DNA of 20,000 nt from an uncultured virus (IMG/VR IMGVR_UViG_3300005083_000010) (IMGVR_UViG_3300005083_000010), one strand, 5' to 3'; positions 1-20,000 are shown, numbered from the stretch's first letter. Program-made: numbers and translations. Notes: a model not told the origin generated them from the sequence alone.

Positions 1-93
1 GGTAGTTGATATATCTGCGAGCTTAAGCAACTCCATTTTTTTGACGCCGCGCCGGTTGAGCAAGTCAAAGAGCTTGTAGTATTTGATAGCCAT
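1..93 (-). CDS. XRE/Cro-CI family HTH transcriptional regulator (N-terminal part, runs off the window)
   Basis: Not in the ORF track. Manual translation gives MAIKYYKLFDLLNRRGVKKMELLKLADISTT..., a typical HTH_26-like N-terminus. GGAGG RBS at 106-102. Confidence 0.8.
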   Translation of the reverse strand, partial: MAIKYYKLFDLLNRRGVKKMELLKLADISTT

Positions 94-113
94 GCAATGC
101 ACCTCCTACAAGC

Positions 114-142
114 ATTTTAGCGCAATTAAGTCACTGTGGCAA
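114..142 (-). promoter_or_regulatory. Leftward sigma70/sigmaA promoter for the repressor gene
   Basis: On the - strand: TTGCCA (142-137), 17 nt spacer, TAAAAT (119-114), directly upstream of the RBS. Confidence 0.6.
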
Positions 143-183
143 GAAATATTTATGAAAATTCAGAAATTTTTTTGAAAAAGGTA

Positions 184-212
184 TTGACAAGTTAAACATG
201 TTTACCGATAAT
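184..212 (+). promoter_or_regulatory. Rightward sigma70/sigmaA promoter for the small-ORF operon
   Basis: TTGACA (184-189), 17 nt spacer, GATAAT (207-212). An overlapping TATAAT lies at 212-217 and an A/T-rich UP-like tract lies upstream. Confidence 0.75.
193..204. promoter_or_regulatory. Candidate operator (perfect 12-bp palindrome in the promoter spacer)
   Basis: TAAACATGTTTA is its own reverse complement and sits between -35 and -10, next to a divergent HTH gene. Confidence 0.5.
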
Positions 213-280
213 ATAATTGTGAGAACGCAGAAATAATTATTTAAGCAAATAATAAATTATGAAAGAGAGAGGGAAAGACG

Positions 281-658
281 ATGACAACAACAGAGATAAG
301 GAAAGAACTTGAAACCCGTAAAGACCGGAGCGCATGGAACAAAGGCGTAACGGTATACGCTTTGGAGCTGATAGACAGCTTAGAGGAAAACGACGTCACG
401 GAGCTAACCGGAGCGCCTGCGGACAGGCAGGAAATGTTAAACGGCGCCAAGGACTGGGCGCAATACTCATGGGGAGGCTGTGCGCTTATCTATGATGAGG
501 ACATCGCGACGCGGTTATGCACGGCGTCGGAGCTTAAGCGCACGGCGCACGGCGCACGGCGCCCAAACGCGCGGGAAGAATGGCTTGACGTTCAGGCGCG
601 GGCGTTATATCAGGCGGCATACAGGATTTTATGGTTGGCGAAGGCGGGAGGCAAATGA
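281..658 (+). CDS. Hypothetical phage protein (125 aa)
   Basis: First ORF after the promoter, with a purine-rich RBS (GAGGG) and an ATGA overlap with the next ORF. Confidence 0.8.
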   Translation: MTTTEIRKELETRKDRSAWNKGVTVYALELIDSLEENDVTELTGAPADRQEMLNGAKDWAQYSWGGCALIYDEDIATRLCTASELKRTAHGARRPNAREEWLDVQARALYQAAYRILWLAKAGGK

Positions 659-786
659 CAATTCTTGAAGTGGCGGCGGTACTACTACCGCCGATTGGGT
701 TTACGGTGGCGGCGTTTATAGCCGCGCACGTGATAGTAGAATCGGGTATCAGAAAATATGGCGCGAAAGCGGACAAGGAGGATTAA
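655..786 (+). CDS. Small single-pass membrane protein (43 aa)
   Basis: Not in the ORF track. MTILEVAAVLLPPIGFTVAAFIAAHVIVESGIRKYGAKADKED, with a GGGAGG RBS and ATGA coupling. It fills the gap between its neighbours. Confidence 0.65.
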   Translation: MTILEVAAVLLPPIGFTVAAFIAAHVIVESGIRKYGAKADKED

Positions 787-790
787 GACA

Positions 791-1042
791 ATGGCAACAA
801 CAATGGCAAGGCGCCCGATACCGGCGCCGATAATCGCGGGTTATGACCGCCCGAACGACGGAAAGGCGCGTGAAGTGTTTTACCAACACGCGGAGACAAG
901 CGATGTAACCTACAATCTGGACAAGGCGCTTGCGTGGTATAGCAACGGCGCGTCGGTGCTTGTATGGAATCCGGTTATCGGGATGCCTGTACAAAACACG
1001 GACAGGCGTGAGACGTGGGTACACGAGATAACCTTATATTAA
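791..1042 (+). CDS. Hypothetical protein (83 aa; start revised from 758 to 791)
   Basis: AGGAGG at 776-781 precedes ATG 791. The stop lies immediately before the first ribozyme. Confidence 0.7.
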   Translation: MATTMARRPIPAPIIAGYDRPNDGKAREVFYQHAETSDVTYNLDKALAWYSNGASVLVWNPVIGMPVQNTDRRETWVHEITLY

Positions 1043-1044
1043 GC

Positions 1045-1114
1045 GCCGAAACGGCGGGGAGAAAGCCCGCCGTCTGCGGGAGAGTGGCACTCACCGCACC
1101 GATGAGGCAAGCCA
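1045..1114 (+). ncRNA. Hammerhead ribozyme type II, copy 1 (predicted cleavage after C1074)
   Basis: Elements in order: GCC(1045-47), GAAA, stem III CGGCGGG/CCCGCCG, UC (GUC triplet), stem I UGCGG/CCGCA, core CCGAUGA (1099-1105), GGC (1106-08). Loop I UGGC (1085-88) is complementary to the tail GCCA (1111-14). Confidence 0.85.
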
Positions 1115-1145
1115 AAATAACAATAACATAGGAGGGCTTAAGGAC

Positions 1146-1367
1146 ATGACGATGAGACGAACCCACGCAGTATCATGCGACGGAAACGGTTTATGGTATG
1201 CACACAAGGTAGGTTTTCCGCATATTCCACTTGCCGGCTCATTTAGCCGGCGCCGAGCGGACGCGGAAAAGCTTGCGGCGGCAATGCAGGCGATACCGGT
1301 ACAAGAGTGGCGCAAGCTGCGAGACCAAGCCAAGTACCGGAATATATCAGGAGAGACTTTTAATTAA
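1146..1367 (+). CDS. Hypothetical protein (73 aa) flanked by two hammerheads
   Basis: GGAGG at 1131-1135. The TAA stop abuts ribozyme copy 2. Confidence 0.75.
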   Translation: MTMRRTHAVSCDGNGLWYAHKVGFPHIPLAGSFSRRRADAEKLAAAMQAIPVQEWRKLRDQAKYRNISGETFN

Positions 1368-1438
1368 GCCGAAACGGCGGGAGAGGAAACCCGCCGTCTG
1401 CGGGAGAGTGGCACTCACCGCACCGATGAGGCAAGCCA
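1368..1438 (+). ncRNA. Hammerhead ribozyme type II, copy 2 (predicted cleavage after C1398)
   Basis: Elements in order: GCC, GAAA (1371-74), CGGCGGG/CCCGCCG, UC, UGCGG/CCGCA, CCGAUGA (1423-29), GGC, tail GCCA (1435-38). Confidence 0.85.
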
Positions 1439-1468
1439 AAATAACAATAACATAGGAGGATTAAGACA

Positions 1469-1891
1469 ATGGCAACAACAAAGACATGGCAAGTTACTAT
1501 AGTGGAGACGCTCCGCAAAACGATAATGGTTGAAGCCGCGACGCGGGAGGACGCGCAAGACGCGGTAGAATCCGCGTGGCATGACGGCGACTATGTGTTA
1601 GACGCCGATGATTTCAGCGATGTAGAGTTTTACACGGAGGAAGCGACCGACGACGCGGAGGAAATCGCGGAGACGCGAGCGGAGTTTGCGCGGGAATCCA
1701 AGGCGTCACGGATTGCGCGATTGTACCCTAACGCGACATGGGAAGCGGTTGACAAAGACAAATGCGCAGATTGTGAAAGGTTTTGTTCGAAGCACCGCTT
1801 CCTATACCGCGTTTTTGACGAATACGGGCTTATAGCGGTGTTAACTTCAAATGATTTTGGCTATGTGCCTGTTTGCGAAAGGGAGGATTAA
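1469..1891 (+). CDS. DpnD/PcfM-like domain protein with Cys-containing C-terminal extension
   Basis: The N-terminus WQVTIVETLRKTIMVEAATREDA...AWHDGDYVLDADDFSDVEF matches my recollection of the DpnD-PcfM pattern. Strong RBS. Confidence 0.7.
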   Translation: MATTKTWQVTIVETLRKTIMVEAATREDAQDAVESAWHDGDYVLDADDFSDVEFYTEEATDDAEEIAETRAEFARESKASRIARLYPNATWEAVDKDKCADCERFCSKHRFLYRVFDEYGLIAVLTSNDFGYVPVCERED

Positions 1892-1894
1892 GCT

Positions 1895-2095
1895 ATGACA
1901 ACAACAATAATGCATGTGTGGGCTATACGCCCGCACATGTGGAACAAATGGCAAATCTGTTTTCGCATGGGCGGGCTTGAGCTTTTAGGAGAGGCGCACG
2001 GCGCGACGCGCAAAGAAGCCGTCAAGGACTTACGGCGGCGCGGATACACGGTGCCGCGCGAATTAGAGAGAGAAGGGAGGCGGCAGGCATGTTAA
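1895..2095 (+). CDS. Hypothetical protein (66 aa)
   Basis: GGGAGG RBS at 1881-1886, same start cassette as its neighbours. Confidence 0.65.
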   Translation: MTTTIMHVWAIRPHMWNKWQICFRMGGLELLGEAHGATRKEAVKDLRRRGYTVPRELEREGRRQAC

Positions 2096-2313
2096 ACATA
2101 GCTGTGGTAGTTAAGCGGGTGTCAAATTCCGATTACAGCGGTTATGTAATCGGAAAATTGGAGTACACGACGCCCGATGGGCAATTGTTCCCTTGTACGT
2201 ACACCCGCAGGGAAGGCGACACGGACACAACAGACACTTGGGCGCGTATGCGCCATGAGCTACCCGACGCGTCATGGGACGATGTGGAAATCGGAGATTA
2301 CATCTCCGGTTAA
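2089..2313 (+). CDS. Hypothetical protein (74 aa)
   Basis: GGGAGG RBS about 9 nt upstream. Overlaps the previous stop. Confidence 0.65.
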   Translation: MLNIAVVVKRVSNSDYSGYVIGKLEYTTPDGQLFPCTYTRREGDTDTTDTWARMRHELPDASWDDVEIGDYISG

Positions 2314-2347
2314 AACGGGCAGGACGCCGGACGGCGCGGAGCAGTTT

Positions 2348-2379
2348 AAGCCATTACTCATAGATGGGTAATGGTTTTT
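2348..2379 (+). terminator. Probable intrinsic terminator ending the small-ORF operon
   Basis: Hairpin AAGCCATTACTCA-TAGA-TGGGTAATGGTTT (with G-U pairs) ending in a T5 run. Confidence 0.55.
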
Positions 2380-2439
2380 GCTGTGAATCCGACAAGCGAA
2401 CGACACAAGTTGACACGACAAAGAAGGAGGGAAAACACG

Positions 2440-3024
2440 ATGATTTACGGTTACGCACGGTGCAGCACGAACGAGGACAGGCAGGACATCACGCGGCAGA
2501 CGCGGGAGTTAATGGAGCTTGGAGCGCGGGAGGAAAACATATACTTTGAGTATGAAAGCGGGTGTAAGGTAGAGAGGGCGAGACTTAGCGCACTACTTGC
2601 GGCGGTTAAGCCGGGGGACGTGATAGTTACGACGGAGGTATCACGATTGACGCGCAGCACGCGGCAGCTATGCGACATTATACAGCTTGTGCAGGACAGG
2701 CGGCTAAAGCTGATAATCAAGGGCAGCATAACGGTTGATTGCACCGACGGCAGCATGGACGCCATGACGGCGGCATTCTTGAAGATAGTCGGCGTGTTTA
2801 GCGAGCTTGAGCGCGACATGATTTCAAGCCGAGTGCGTTCAGGGCTAAACAATGCGCGCGCGAAGGGCAGGACATTAGGACGCCCGGCGGCGGTGCGAGC
2901 GGGCGCCGATGAATTTCGCCAGGAGGTAGAGGACGCGCGGAGGGCAGGGCTATCTATGGGCAGTATCGCGAAGGCACGGGGTATAAGCACGGCGACGCTT
3001 TACCGCAAGCTGAAAGAGGCGTAA
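2440..3024 (+). CDS. Small serine recombinase (resolvase/invertase family, 194 aa; start revised to 2440)
   Basis: MIYGYARCST catalytic motif, GDVIVTTEVSRLTRS, ELERDMISSRVRSGL...GRTLGRP and a C-terminal HTH (ARGISTATLYRKL). AAGGAGG RBS. Confidence 0.95.
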   Translation: MIYGYARCSTNEDRQDITRQTRELMELGAREENIYFEYESGCKVERARLSALLAAVKPGDVIVTTEVSRLTRSTRQLCDIIQLVQDRRLKLIIKGSITVDCTDGSMDAMTAAFLKIVGVFSELERDMISSRVRSGLNNARAKGRTLGRPAAVRAGADEFRQEVEDARRAGLSMGSIAKARGISTATLYRKLKEA

Positions 3025-18674: not shown

Positions 18675-19115
18675 CTACGCCTCCGTTCTTGCGGCGGTCA
18701 GATCCGCCAATGCGGCTTGTTTCTTGTCGGCGGGAATATCTGCTATCTTGCGCACACCGTACTTGTTGAAAATCGCGGCGAGTTGCGCGTTCTTGCCCGA
18801 CGCCACAAGCACCCGCGCGGCGTCAAGCAGCTCTTTGTGTAACGCTTCTGCGGAATCTTCCTTCGCGGGTTCCTCCTTTACGGGTTCCTCCTTCGCGGGT
18901 TCCTCCTTCACGGGTTCCTCCTTCACGGGTTCTTGCTTCGCAGGTTCCTCCTTTACGGGTTCTTCCTTTACGGGTTCCACCTTCGCGGGTTCTTCCTTCT
19001 CAACGTCCTTCTTTGAAGCCTTAACAGGCTTTTCGGGTTCAGCTTTCGGCGCAATCAGCGCCAACTTCTCTTGAATCTCTGCCCAGTTTTCGCCTGTAAT
19101 CTTAATCTCAATCAT
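18675..19115 (-). CDS. Hypothetical phage protein with KEEP(A/V) repeat linker
   Basis: AAGGA RBS, usual position upstream of DUF2800, C-terminal helical domain (KYGVRKIADIP). Confidence 0.85.
   Translation of the reverse strand: MIEIKITGENWAEIQEKLALIAPKAEPEKPVKASKKDVEKEEPAKVEPVKEEPVKEEPAKQEPVKEEPVKEEPAKEEPVKEEPAKEDSAEALHKELLDAARVLVASGKNAQLAAIFNKYGVRKIADIPADKKQAALADLTAARTEA
18864..18998 (-). repeat. 15-bp coding tandem repeat, 9 units
   Basis: Encodes KEEPA KVEPV KEEPV KEEPA KQEPV KEEPV KEEPA KEEPV KEEPA. Confidence 0.92.
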
Positions 19116-19342: not shown

Positions 19343-20000
19343 TCACCCAACATCACCGCCCTTTCTGCTCTCTCGAAATCCGTATATGCTTGCTCCCATG
19401 CCGATAACGGCAACGGCAAGTATAATAAGCAATGCGAACACCCCGCCATCACCTGTCTTTGGCACGTCAGGCACGTCCGTAGGCACCGGCTCATCAGGCA
19501 CGTCCGTAGGCACCGGCNNNNNNNNNNNNNNNNNNNNNNNNNNNNNNNNNNNNNNNNNNNNNNNNNNNNNNNNNNNNNNNNNNNNNNNNNNNNNNNNNNN
19601 NNNNNNNNNNNNNNNNNNNNNNNNNNNNNNNNNNNNNNNNNNNNNNNNNNNNNNNNNNNNNNNAGGCACGTCCGTAGGCACCGGCTCATCAGGTACAATA
19701 ACCTTCACCGGCACTTCCGGCGTGGGTTCAGGCTCTACAGGTGTTTGCACCTTCAGCGGGGGATAATAATATGAGTATGTAGGTGGATTTACAGGCACCG
19801 TGGGTTCCTCCGTGGGTTCGTCCGTGGGTTCGTCCGTAGGTTCGTCCGTGGGTTCGTCCGTGGGTTCTTCCGTAGGCTCGTCCGTAGGCTCGTCCGTAGG
19901 CTCGTCCGTAGGCTCGTCCGTGGGTTCCTCCGTGGGTTCGTCCGTAGGCTCGTCCGTAGGCTCGTCCGTGGGTTCCTCCGTAGGCTCGTCCGTAGGCTCG
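19343..20000 (-). CDS. C-terminus of a Pro/Thr/acidic-repeat surface protein with an LPxTG-like sorting signal (5' end outside window)
   Basis: The frame stays open to the window edge through PT(D/E)E repeats. It ends VPKTG, then a hydrophobic segment (VFALLIILAVAVIGMGASIYGF), then RESRK. It spans an N gap. Confidence 0.75.
   Translation of the reverse strand, partial: EPTDEPTEEPTDEPTDEPTDEPTEEPTDEPTDEPTDEPTDEPTEEPTDEPTDEPTDEPTDEPTEEPTVPVNPPTYSYYYPPLKVQTPVEPEPTPEVPVKVIVPDEPVPTDVPXXXXXXXXXXXXXXXXXXXXXXXXXXXXXXXXXXXXXXXXXXXXXXXXXPVPTDVPDEPVPTDVPDVPKTGDGGVFALLIILAVAVIGMGASIYGFRESRKGGDVG
19469..19690 (-). repeat. 27-bp tandem repeat (DEPVPTDVP) spanning an assembly gap
   Basis: Unit AGGCACGTCCGTAGGCACCGGCTCATC at 19469-19495, partial at 19496-19517, and again at 19664-19690. 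Confidence 0.85.
19518..19663. other. Sequence gap (146 N)
   Basis: Run of N. Confidence 1.
19799..20000 (-). repeat. 12-bp coding tandem repeat (PTDE/PTEE), about 17 units, continuing off the window
   Basis: CGT(G/A)GG(T/C)TC(G/C)TC units on the + strand. Confidence 0.95.

What the first reader, a model, noticed from the sequence alone, without database searches (positions are those of the whole stretch)
1045..1438. Tandem type II hammerhead ribozymes that would excise a 324-nt single-gene RNA from a phage operon
Seen: both intergenic repeats fold as hammerheads with GAAA, the A15.1-U16.1 pair, a GUC cleavage triplet, 7-bp stem III, 5-bp stem I, C-C-G-A-U-G-A core, G10.1-C11.1 and a 3-bp open stem II. 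Differences between the copies are confined to loop III, as expected if structure is conserved. Each starts 0-2 nt after a stop codon and is followed by an A-rich leader and RBS. Established: type II hammerheads with loop I/3'-tail pseudoknots occur near small ORFs in bacterial and phage sequences, and their role is unresolved. Inference: cleavage after 1074 and 1398 splits the polycistron into separate mRNAs with structured 5'-OH ends. The middle piece (1075-1398) carries a full RBS and the 73-aa ORF. Its 5'-OH and 2',3'-cyclic phosphate ends could be ligated (self or RtcB) into a coding circle whose junction rebuilds an intact ribozyme.
Basis: partly seen in the sequence, partly recalled or inferred. 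Interest (0 to 1): 0.9.

Follow-up and report, generated by a model that had tools for sequence, protein, structure and literature searches.

The report
Two hammerhead ribozymes bracketing a phage gene
Two near-identical self-cutting RNA motifs (type II hammerhead ribozymes, both with an unusual C at a normally invariant core position) flank one small gene in a phage operon, a layout known in phages since 2011, so this is a clean new example and not a new kind of system.

Summary
Rfam's Hammerhead_II model hits 1044-1117 (37.8 bits) and 1367-1441 (38.7 bits), just above the gathering score of 37; nothing else in the 20 kb reaches threshold. A family model built only from 57 viral-contig relatives scores them 66.2 and 66.9 bits, next best 12.4. 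Cleavage would fall after 1074 and 1398, releasing a 324-nt RNA with its own SD and a conserved 73-aa ORF.

U4C is reported to lower activity in vitro considerably (PMC3088659). In the family, C4 occurs in 11 of 94 strong matches, in 8 sequence clusters, always with an otherwise intact core, so these are probably working, perhaps slower, ribozymes.

The arrangement is ordinary: 24 of 44 loci carry 2 to 9 copies on one strand, each typically abutting a stop codon and preceding an SD. Perreault et al. 2011 described this layout, proposed single-gene mRNA processing, and looked for circles without finding them. Nothing here supports a circle: no stop-free frame and no excess of multiple-of-three lengths. 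This scan found the same layout before on other DNA.

The parts
1044..1117 (+). Hammerhead copy 1 (type II, U4C core variant). Stem II 1045-1047/1106-1108; stem III 1051-1058/1066-1073 with loop 1059-1065; cleavage after C17 = 1074; stem I 1075-1079/1094-1098 plus 1082-1084/1090-1092; core C3-A9 1099-1105 with C4 at 1100; pseudoknot 1085-1088 with 1111-1114.
   Evidence: Rfam RF02276 37.8 bits, gathering score 37, E 1.3e-4. Leave-out family model R2 66.2 bits. The stand-alone MFE is the three-way junction, -31.1 kcal/mol.
1367..1441 (+). Hammerhead copy 2 (type II, U4C core variant). Stem II 1368-1370/1430-1432; stem III 1374-1381/1390-1397 with loop 1382-1389; cleavage after C17 = 1398; stem I 1399-1403/1418-1422 plus 1406-1408/1414-1416; core 1423-1429 with C4 at 1424; pseudoknot 1409-1412 with 1435-1438.
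   Evidence: Rfam RF02276 38.7 bits, E 7.7e-5. R2 66.9 bits. Stand-alone MFE -30.5 kcal/mol.
1075..1398 (+). Predicted 324-nt excised RNA. It begins with a 5'-OH at stem I and the pseudoknot of copy 1, then the leader, the SD and the 73-aa ORF. It ends with stem III of copy 2 and a 2',3'-cyclic phosphate.
   Evidence: Follows from the two C17 positions. Length 324; no stop-free frame if circular.
1146..1367 (+). 73-aa ORF of unknown function, SD AGGAGG at 1130-1135.
   Evidence: ORF listed. There are 8 viral-contig loci with relatives at 38-50% identity, E 1e-14 to 3e-9. No Pfam or PHROG family. The atlas gives only hypothetical phage proteins.
791..1042 (+). Upstream 83-aa ORF. Its TAA stop ends 2 nt before stem II of copy 1.
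   Evidence: No family. No relatives in viral contigs.
1469..1891 (+). Downstream 140-aa ORF (DpnD/PcfM-like), SD 1454-1459. It is the first gene of the 3' cleavage product, which continues to the resolvase gene at 2371-3024.
   Evidence: PF14207, 68.2 bits. No terminator-like site on the + strand between 791 and 3024.
184..212 (+). Best promoter-like site for the + strand small-gene operon (TTGACA-17-GATAAT, 11 of 12). A weaker one lies at 715-742.
   Evidence: Consensus scan only; not evidence of function.

Best explanation
These are two copies of one cassette (type II hammerhead, A-rich leader, SD) in a + strand operon of small genes in a tailed-phage-like genome.

Proposed mechanism. When the operon is transcribed, each ribozyme folds into stems I and III as hairpins, a 3-bp open stem II, and a loop I/3'-tail pseudoknot. 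Each then cuts itself after C17 (1074 and 1398). This severs the message at two gene boundaries.

Products. Each upstream piece keeps its stop codon and ends in the GC-rich stem III hairpin with a 2',3'-cyclic phosphate. Each downstream piece starts with a 5'-OH, the stem I hairpin and the pseudoknot, about 20-30 nt before its SD. The 73-aa gene therefore becomes a separate 324-nt mRNA. The half-lives and translation of the three pieces are uncoupled from each other and from upstream sequence, much as an engineered ribozyme insulator does.

Effect of U4C. Because both cores carry U4C, cleavage is probably slower or less complete than for consensus copies.

Shown here: motif, structure, family membership, and position relative to genes. 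Inferred: cleavage in vivo, the fate of the ends, and the effect on expression.
For: Motif and structure:
- Rfam gathering-score hits for both copies, and nothing else in the window.
- An independent family model gives 66-67 bits against 12.4 for the next best match.
- The family structure is strongly supported across 101 matches: 92.2% of cells paired against 67.2% in shuffles (0 of 500 shuffles reach it), and 20 of 21 pairs carry compensatory changes. The pseudoknot was not part of the model, yet it is 94.2% paired with covariation at 4 of 4 pairs.

Position and arrangement:
- In the family, 64 of 88 ribozymes with a detectable upstream ORF start within -2 to +1 nt of its stop codon. An SD-led start codon follows 91 of 94, at a median of 21 nt. 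The window copies fit both patterns.
- All copies in a locus lie on one strand, and 24 of 44 loci hold 2-9 copies.

The C4 core:
- C4 copies show no further decay: 0 of 11 have other core deviations, and they pair 15.0 of 17 model positions against 15.3 for U4 copies.
- C4 arose in 8 clusters.

Literature:
- Perreault 2011 saw cleavage at all sites in three tandem arrangements transcribed in vitro.
- Three D. vulgaris type II hammerheads gave cleavage ends in RNA from cells; two of them start 313 nt apart in close proximity, with an HTH-motif gene drawn in that context.
- The U4C viroid variant keeps enough activity in vivo for infectivity.
Against: - U4 is one of the consensus core positions. 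U4C 'considerably decreases activity in vitro', and Perreault's screen disqualified any core mutation.
- The two copies are 96% identical, so they count as one observation.
- Rfam scores exceed the threshold by only 0.8 and 1.7 bits.
- The seed of my family model was retrieved with a pattern taken from the window's own ribozyme, so part of the 66-67 bits arises by construction.
- Nearest-neighbour folding of longer precursors does not form the 3-bp stem II (P 1e-5 to 1e-8). This model lacks the tertiary contacts, and it swaps identical strands between the copies.
- No expression or cleavage data exist for this locus.
- Relatives of the 73-aa gene in 8 other phage contigs have no ribozyme next to them, so the gene does not need one.
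Confidence: 0.6

Rival explanations
1. Crippled copies. U4C has made both ribozymes too slow to matter. The cassette persists as a duplicated intergenic spacer (hairpins plus leader plus SD) or as neutral sequence, and the operon is expressed as an uncut polycistron.
For: Core position 4 departs from the consensus in both copies. U4C lowers in vitro activity considerably. Scores are barely above the Rfam threshold. Near-identical ribozymes in related contigs differ at position 4 (L041 against L015 at 98% alike, L056 against L039 at 91%), as expected for a recent, possibly slightly deleterious, substitution.
Against: Every other core position, all three stems and the pseudoknot are intact in 11 of 11 C4 copies. 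One C4 cluster (L048, L049, L056) has diverged in stem III sequence while keeping the pairing. C4 recurs in 8 clusters. The viroid U4C variant works in vivo.
Confidence: 0.22
2. Tuned or conditional cleavage. C4 is kept because partial or condition-dependent cutting (Mg2+, pH, ribosome occupancy of the abutting stop codon) sets the ratio of full-length to processed message, and so the dose of the 73-aa protein relative to its neighbours.
For: C4 is found in 11 of 94 strong family matches, while the other fixed core positions hardly vary. Stem II begins 0-2 nt after the stop codon, and in the family 64 of 88 lie within -2 to +1 nt, so by inference a terminating ribosome would cover the 5' part of the ribozyme. 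Perreault et al. suggest that slower phage variants might become more active under appropriate conditions.
Against: No direct evidence. The C4 frequency also fits a nearly neutral polymorphism. Tight packing of phage genes alone could explain the stop-codon abutment.
Confidence: 0.1
3. Coding circle. The 324-nt piece is joined end to end, by the reverse hammerhead reaction or by a host RtcB-type ligase, into a translatable circular mRNA whose junction rebuilds a ribozyme.
For: The ends have the right chemistry. The two copies are identical outside loop III, so the junction would rebuild an intact motif. The nearest-neighbour model gives the joining helix 1106-1108 x 1368-1370 a probability of 0.38 in the excised piece. 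Engineered ribozyme-flanked mRNAs are circularised by native RtcB in E. coli. The length is a multiple of three.
Against: The two ends would be held only by a 3-bp stem II, because stems I and III and the pseudoknot each lie within one end. A rebuilt ribozyme would cut again. The circle has no stop-free frame, and in the family only 14 of 51 pieces are multiples of three, against about 17 expected. Perreault et al. could not detect circular or spliced products. Free 2',3'-cP and 5'-OH ends were captured in D. vulgaris. The host, and whether it has RtcB, are unknown.
Confidence: 0.05

Closest known systems
Clustered hammerhead ribozymes flanking single genes or short gene blocks in prophages (Perreault et al. 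2011, PMC3088659; passages and section 8 read)
   Same: Type II topology, loop I/3'-tail pseudoknot, short stem II, several copies on one strand bracketing single small genes of varying identity, phage context. The proposed role is processing into single-gene mRNAs, and the circle idea was already raised there.
   Different: Both copies here carry U4C, which that study's screen would have set aside as a core mutation. The flanked genes differ (73-aa unknown; DpnD/PcfM-like downstream). No cleavage assay exists for this locus.
Desulfovibrio vulgaris type II hammerheads loc 2 and loc 3 (cyPhyRNA-seq, PMC8782182; abstract and passages read)
   Same: Two type II hammerheads on one strand whose start coordinates lie 313 nt apart, in close proximity near phage-like genes (an HTH-motif gene is drawn in that context). 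Here the spacing is 323-324 nt around a 73-aa gene.
   Different: Those were shown to give cleavage ends in RNA from cells. Whether their cores are consensus was not checked here.
U4C hammerhead variant of a viroid (Ambros and Flores 1998, known here only through Perreault's citation; the paper itself is not held)
   Same: The same core substitution, occurring naturally and compatible with function in vivo.
   Different: A viroid replication ribozyme of another topology, not a DNA-encoded phage mRNA element.
Engineered ribozyme insulators and ribozyme-plus-RtcB circular mRNAs in E. coli (PMC12628768, passages read; RiboJ-type insulators recalled from memory, not read)
   Same: Self-cleavage just upstream of an SD gives a defined, structured 5' end. 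Ribozymes flanking a coding RNA leave ends that RtcB can ligate.
   Different: The engineered circles use designed complementary ends that hold the termini together. Here only a 3-bp helix would do so.

Membership tests
Hammerhead ribozyme, type II (Rfam RF02276) | Covariance-model score at or above the curated gathering score (37 bits) | tested here: met
   37.8 bits (1044-1117) and 38.7 bits (1367-1441), full-length model match 1-66.
Hammerhead ribozyme, type II (Rfam RF02276) | Consensus catalytic core C3 U4 G5 A6 N7 G8 A9, G12 A13 A14, A15.1-U16.1, H17 (as listed in PMC3088659 methods) | tested here: not met
   12 of 13 positions fit. Position 4 is C, not U, in both copies (1100, 1424). 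Under Perreault's strict screen this disqualifies a hit unless activity is shown. I therefore file it as a U4C core-variant member at motif level, with activity unproven.
Hammerhead ribozyme, type II (Rfam RF02276) | Three helices around the core, with stems I and III closed by loops and stem II open (type II permutation); pairs adjacent to the core intact | tested here: met
   Stem I 5+3 bp, stem III 8 bp, stem II 3 bp. U1.1-A2.1, G10.1-C11.1 and A15.1-U16.1 are all present.
Hammerhead ribozyme, type II (Rfam RF02276) | Pseudoknot between loop I and the nucleotides just 3' of stem II | tested here: met
   UGGC (1085-1088; 1409-1412) with GCCA (1111-1114; 1435-1438). In the family this helix is 94.2% paired, with compensatory changes at 4 of 4 pairs.
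Hammerhead ribozyme, type II (Rfam RF02276) | Site-specific self-cleavage 3' of H17, giving 2',3'-cyclic phosphate and 5'-OH ends | not testable with these tools
   No RNA run was listed for the locus. A transcription assay or end mapping is needed.
Clustered phage/prophage hammerhead arrangement (Perreault 2011) | Two or more hammerheads on the coding strand in intergenic gaps, flanking single genes or short blocks in a phage context | tested here: met
   Two copies 324 nt apart, both between a stop codon and the next SD. The window carries a phage replication module. The same layout occurs in 24 of 44 family loci.
Ribozyme-bounded circular RNAs (retrozyme, viroid-like or Zetavirus-like) | Rod-like or end-pairing structure, a stop-free frame with length a multiple of three, or junction reads | tested here: not met
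   The MFE of the piece has no pairs between its first 59 and last 45 nt. No stop-free frame, although the length is 324. Junction reads could not be tested. The joining helix has P 0.38 in the ensemble, so end contact is not excluded.

The most novel reading that the evidence does not exclude
The 324-nt piece between the two cuts is sealed in the cell, by the reverse ribozyme reaction or a host RtcB-type ligase, into a small circular mRNA for the 73-aa protein. The slow U4C core limits re-cleavage of the rebuilt junction, so the circle persists. That would be a natural, phage-encoded coding circular RNA in bacteria.
Probability: 0.04. Interest if true: 0.8.

Novelty: new member of a known kind. 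Interest (0 to 1): 0.25.

Why it matters
As it stands, this adds one more example to a layout described in 2011 whose purpose is still unproven (PMC6765202). Two small points go beyond a routine annotation and could be followed up cheaply.

1. U4C is the one recurrent departure at a fixed core position in this phage family: 11 of 94 matches, in 8 clusters, never with other damage. This suggests that natural pseudoknotted type II hammerheads tolerate or use it.
2. The ribozyme typically begins at the upstream stop codon. This makes an interplay between translation termination and ribozyme folding testable.

Neither point changes the class of the finding.

Tried and rejected
- RNA evidence: the look-up of sequencing runs on 281-3024 listed no run of any kind, and no RNA holder was listed.
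- Own genome: none is held.
- Close relatives of the locus:
  - No match for 700-2400 in INPHARED phages.
  - No exact match to the ribozyme's stem I plus core in viral, genome or metagenome contigs.
  - No relatives of the 83-aa or 140-aa flanking proteins in viral contigs, nor of the DUF2800 nuclease in genome contigs. Conservation of the ribozymes at this exact locus therefore could not be tested, and the host stays unknown.
  - The best phage matches to the primase-helicase are about 40% identical Brevibacillus and Paenibacillus phages.
- Link between the ribozymes and the 73-aa gene: rejected. 8 loci with relatives of the protein show no Rfam hit at E<=1 in 36,069 nt. My model gives only one weak match, in L007 (16.6 bits, E 0.07).
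- Thermodynamic folding of long precursors: uninformative. The first attempt timed out.
- Intrinsic terminator reading of stem III: rejected. No T-run follows it, and the + strand scan lists no terminator between 791 and 3024.
- Endless-ORF circle: rejected.
- Function of the 73-aa protein: the atlas gave only unnamed phage clusters and sub-threshold DUF2188/HicB-like structural resemblances.
- Literature: searches for U4C data beyond Perreault and for phage circular products found no study of phage hammerhead circles. The Ambros and Flores paper is not held.
- Left out of the model search: seven loci (L028, L030, L031, L038, L042, L043, L051), because one search showed that their ribozymes duplicate others.

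Full report
OBSERVATION

The window sequence and an Rfam scan of all 20,000 bases on both strands confirm the finding. Hammerhead_II (RF02276, gathering score 37) matches 1044-1117 at 37.8 bits (E 1.3e-4) and 1367-1441 at 38.7 bits (E 7.7e-5). Both matches are on the + strand and cover the whole model. A permissive scan (E up to 5) adds only two unrelated weak matches far below their thresholds.

- GAAA, the A15.1-U16.1 pair and GUC with C17 at 1074 and 1398.
- A stem III of 7 bp beyond A15.1-U16.1, a 5-bp stem I (plus three inner pairs), G10.1-C11.1 and a 3-bp open stem II.
- A loop I UGGC complementary to GCCA in the 3' tail.

Each copy alone folds into the three-way junction as its minimum-energy structure (-31.1 and -30.5 kcal/mol). 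The copies belong to a direct repeat, 96% identical, with 324-nt spacing. This repeat runs through the A-rich leader to the SD. Inside the ribozyme the copies differ only in loop III. The stop codons of the upstream ORFs end 2 and 0 nt before stem II.

The model alignments show that the core reads CCGAUGA where the consensus is CUGAUGA. Position 4 is C in both copies (1100 and 1424). Perreault et al. 2011 (PMC3088659; I read the passages shown and all of section 8) list U4 among the core positions whose mutation disqualified a hit in their screen. They also state that the U4C variant 'considerably decreases activity in vitro' yet keeps enough activity in vivo for viroid infectivity. They cite Ambros and Flores 1998, which I could not read. 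This is why the Rfam scores sit so close to the threshold.

CONTEXT

PHROG and Pfam scans of 27 ORFs show a phage-type replication module on the - strand:
- DUF2800/PD-(D/E)XK nuclease, Enc34-type ssDNA-binding protein, C5 methylase.
- AntA and Rha regulators, PAPS-reductase-like protein, family A polymerase.
- Radical SAM protein, VapE primase-helicase, VRR-NUC, SNF2 helicase.

A + strand block of small ORFs (281-3024) ends in a resolvase/invertase. The ribozymes lie in this block, between an 83-aa ORF, the 73-aa ORF and a DpnD/PcfM-like ORF. A strong promoter-like site lies at 184-212, and no terminator-like site lies on the + strand between 791 and 3024 (consensus matches only). No whole genome is held for the window, and no close relative of the locus was found in any collection. 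The best phage matches to the primase-helicase are about 40% identical Bacillota phages.

THE FAMILY

A degenerate pattern that allowed C or U at position 4 found 49 viral-contig loci. These held 56 matches besides the window's two. Of all 58 matches, 50 had U4 and 8 had C4. That gave 48 distinct sequences.

A covariance model of these (R1) was searched over the window and 50 loci, 260,605 nt in all. Seven duplicate loci were left out. It gave 101 matches at E<=0.1.

On their alignment the structure is strongly supported:
- 92.2% of cells are paired, against 67.2% in shuffles (0 of 500 shuffles reach it).
- 20 of 21 pairs show changes on both sides.
- Slid controls reach at most 42.2%.
- The pseudoknot, which the model did not contain, is 94.2% paired, with compensatory changes at all four pairs.

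A second model, built from 57 sequences none of which comes from the window (R2), scores the window copies 66.9 and 66.2 bits with filters off. The next best match in the window scores 12.4 bits. Caveat: the seed was fished with a pattern taken from the window's ribozyme, so part of that score arises by construction. The Rfam result is the independent one.

THE ARRANGEMENT IS COMMON

Within each locus, all matches lie on one strand. Of 44 loci with matches, 24 hold two or more within the roughly 5 kb held, up to 9 (L027) and 7 (L029). The 57 spacings have a median of 543 nt and a minimum of 252. The window's spacing is the fourth smallest (weak matches included).

Among the 94 matches with E<=1e-4:
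- An upstream ORF of at least 40 codons was found for 88. In 64 of these 88, the model begins within -2 to +1 nt of the stop codon.
- An SD-led start codon follows 91 of the 94, at a median of 21 nt after the model end.

The genes that follow are mostly small and unknown: 75 of 85 distinct downstream proteins have no Pfam family at E<=1e-4. The 73-aa protein has relatives in 8 viral contigs (38-50% identity), but no ribozyme lies next to them. One weak match in L007 is the only exception. So the ribozymes are not tied to this gene. This matches Perreault's remark that the identities of the flanked genes are not constant.

THE C4 QUESTION

Among the 94 strong matches, 82 have U4, 11 have C4 (2 of them the window's) and 1 has G. 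Three C4 copies (L011:2849, L022:1312, L047:2154) were found only by the model, not by the pattern.

- C4 copies have no other core deviation (0 of 11, against 3 of 82 for U4) and no core insertion (0 of 11, against 4 of 82).
- They pair 15.0 of the 17 model pairs on average, against 15.3 for U4 copies.
- They fall into 8 clusters at 80% identity over the variable columns, 7 of them outside the window.
- Some have near-identical U4 partners: L041/L015 at 98% and L056/L039 at 91%.
- One C4 cluster (L048, L049, L056) has different stem III sequences that still pair.

This argues that C4 copies are maintained ribozymes and not decaying relics. It also fits a nearly neutral polymorphism. It cannot say how fast they cut.

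MECHANISM

The best-supported reading is the published one. Self-cleavage at gene boundaries turns a polycistronic phage transcript into separate mRNAs with different stabilities or translation. This was proposed by Perreault 2011 and repeated, as still unproven, in the 2019 review PMC6765202 (passage).

What the anatomy adds is inference from the coordinates. The cut lies about 31 nt past the stop codon. The upstream piece therefore keeps its stop codon and ends in the stem III hairpin with a cyclic phosphate. The downstream piece begins with a 5'-OH, stem I and the pseudoknot, shortly before its SD.

In vivo cleavage of type II hammerheads in a similar pair is documented for Desulfovibrio vulgaris. 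There, loc 2 and loc 3 start 313 nt apart in close proximity, and the figure legend shows an HTH-motif gene in that context (PMC8782182, abstract and passages).

THE CIRCLE

Points for:
- The ends have the right chemistry, and the junction would rebuild the motif.
- A nearest-neighbour model gives the joining 3-bp helix P 0.38 in the excised piece.
- Engineered ribozyme-flanked mRNAs are circularised by native RtcB in E. coli (PMC12628768).

Points against:
- Only that 3-bp helix would hold the ends together.
- The MFE shows no pairing between the two ends.
- The circle has no stop-free frame.
- Family piece lengths are not enriched for multiples of three: 14, 18 and 19 of 51 for remainders 0, 1 and 2.
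- Perreault et al. could not detect circular or spliced products (data not shown in the paper).

Folding of longer precursors was uninformative. I put the circle at about 4-5%.

COMPARISON AND VERDICT

At motif level, this is a member of the type II hammerhead family and of the clustered-prophage arrangement. One defining core position is not met (U4C), and activity is untested. Earlier agents of this scan reached the same conclusion for at least eight other genomes, and my own tests agree with them.

Novelty: new member of a known kind. Interest is low to modest. The recurrent C4 core and the stop-codon abutment are small leads worth recording.

Noticed in passing
window 1100 and 1424; L041:2498-2567, L055:2252-2322, L048:2498-2583, L049:2498-2579, L056:2496-2574, L027:3012-3090, L011:2849-2931, L022:1312-1381, L047:2154-2219: U4C is the only recurrent change at a fixed core position in this phage type II hammerhead family. 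It occurs in 11 of 94 strong matches and in 8 sequence clusters, never together with other core damage. My searches found no paper describing this for phage hammerheads.
   Followed up: partly
window 1040-1047 and 1365-1370; family loci L009-L057: The ribozyme typically starts at the upstream stop codon: 64 of 88 lie within -2 to +1 nt. A terminating ribosome would therefore cover stem II, GAAA and part of stem III. Translation termination and ribozyme folding may be coupled, or this may only reflect tight gene packing.
   Followed up: partly
L027:248-4933 (+) and L029:2114-4491 (+): Arrays of 9 and 7 hammerhead matches on one strand within about 4.7 and 2.4 kb, at single-gene spacing (266-765 nt). 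These are larger than the triple arrangements described in the passages I read of Perreault 2011.
   Followed up: no
window 776-812 and 1454-1490 (also looser copies at 266-292 and 1880-1906): The SD, spacer and first codons (ATG GCA ACA ACA) of the 83-aa and 140-aa ORFs are the same over 27 nt, and 92% alike over 37 nt. This suggests recombination or duplication at gene starts in this small-gene block. The copy at 776 has no ribozyme before it.
   Followed up: no
window 1135-1141 and 1364-1370: GGCUUAA, between the SD and the start codon of the 73-aa ORF, is complementary to UUAAGCC, which includes the 5' strand of stem II of copy 2. The pairing appears in the MFE of the excised piece. By a rough hand estimate of mine (not a tool result), a 7-nt complement within 324 nt is expected about three times by chance, so it is probably not meaningful.
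   Followed up: partly
L007:3322-3404 (+): A weak hammerhead-like match (16.6 bits, E 0.07) lies about 140 nt downstream of a relative of the 73-aa ORF. It has CUGAUGA and the UGGC/GCC elements but no clear stem II, and may be a decayed copy.
   Followed up: no
window 18821-19030 and 19774-20000; N run near 19518: Tandem 15-nt and 12-nt repeats (10 and 12 copies) lie inside - strand reading frames at the right end of the window. A masked or unknown stretch of N lies around 19518.
   Followed up: no
window 1-280: A - strand ORF runs off the left end (1-102; by eye a helix-turn-helix-like start, not tested). Promoter-like sites face both ways (142-114 on the - strand, 184-212 on the + strand). 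It looks like a divergent control region ahead of the small-gene operon.
   Followed up: no
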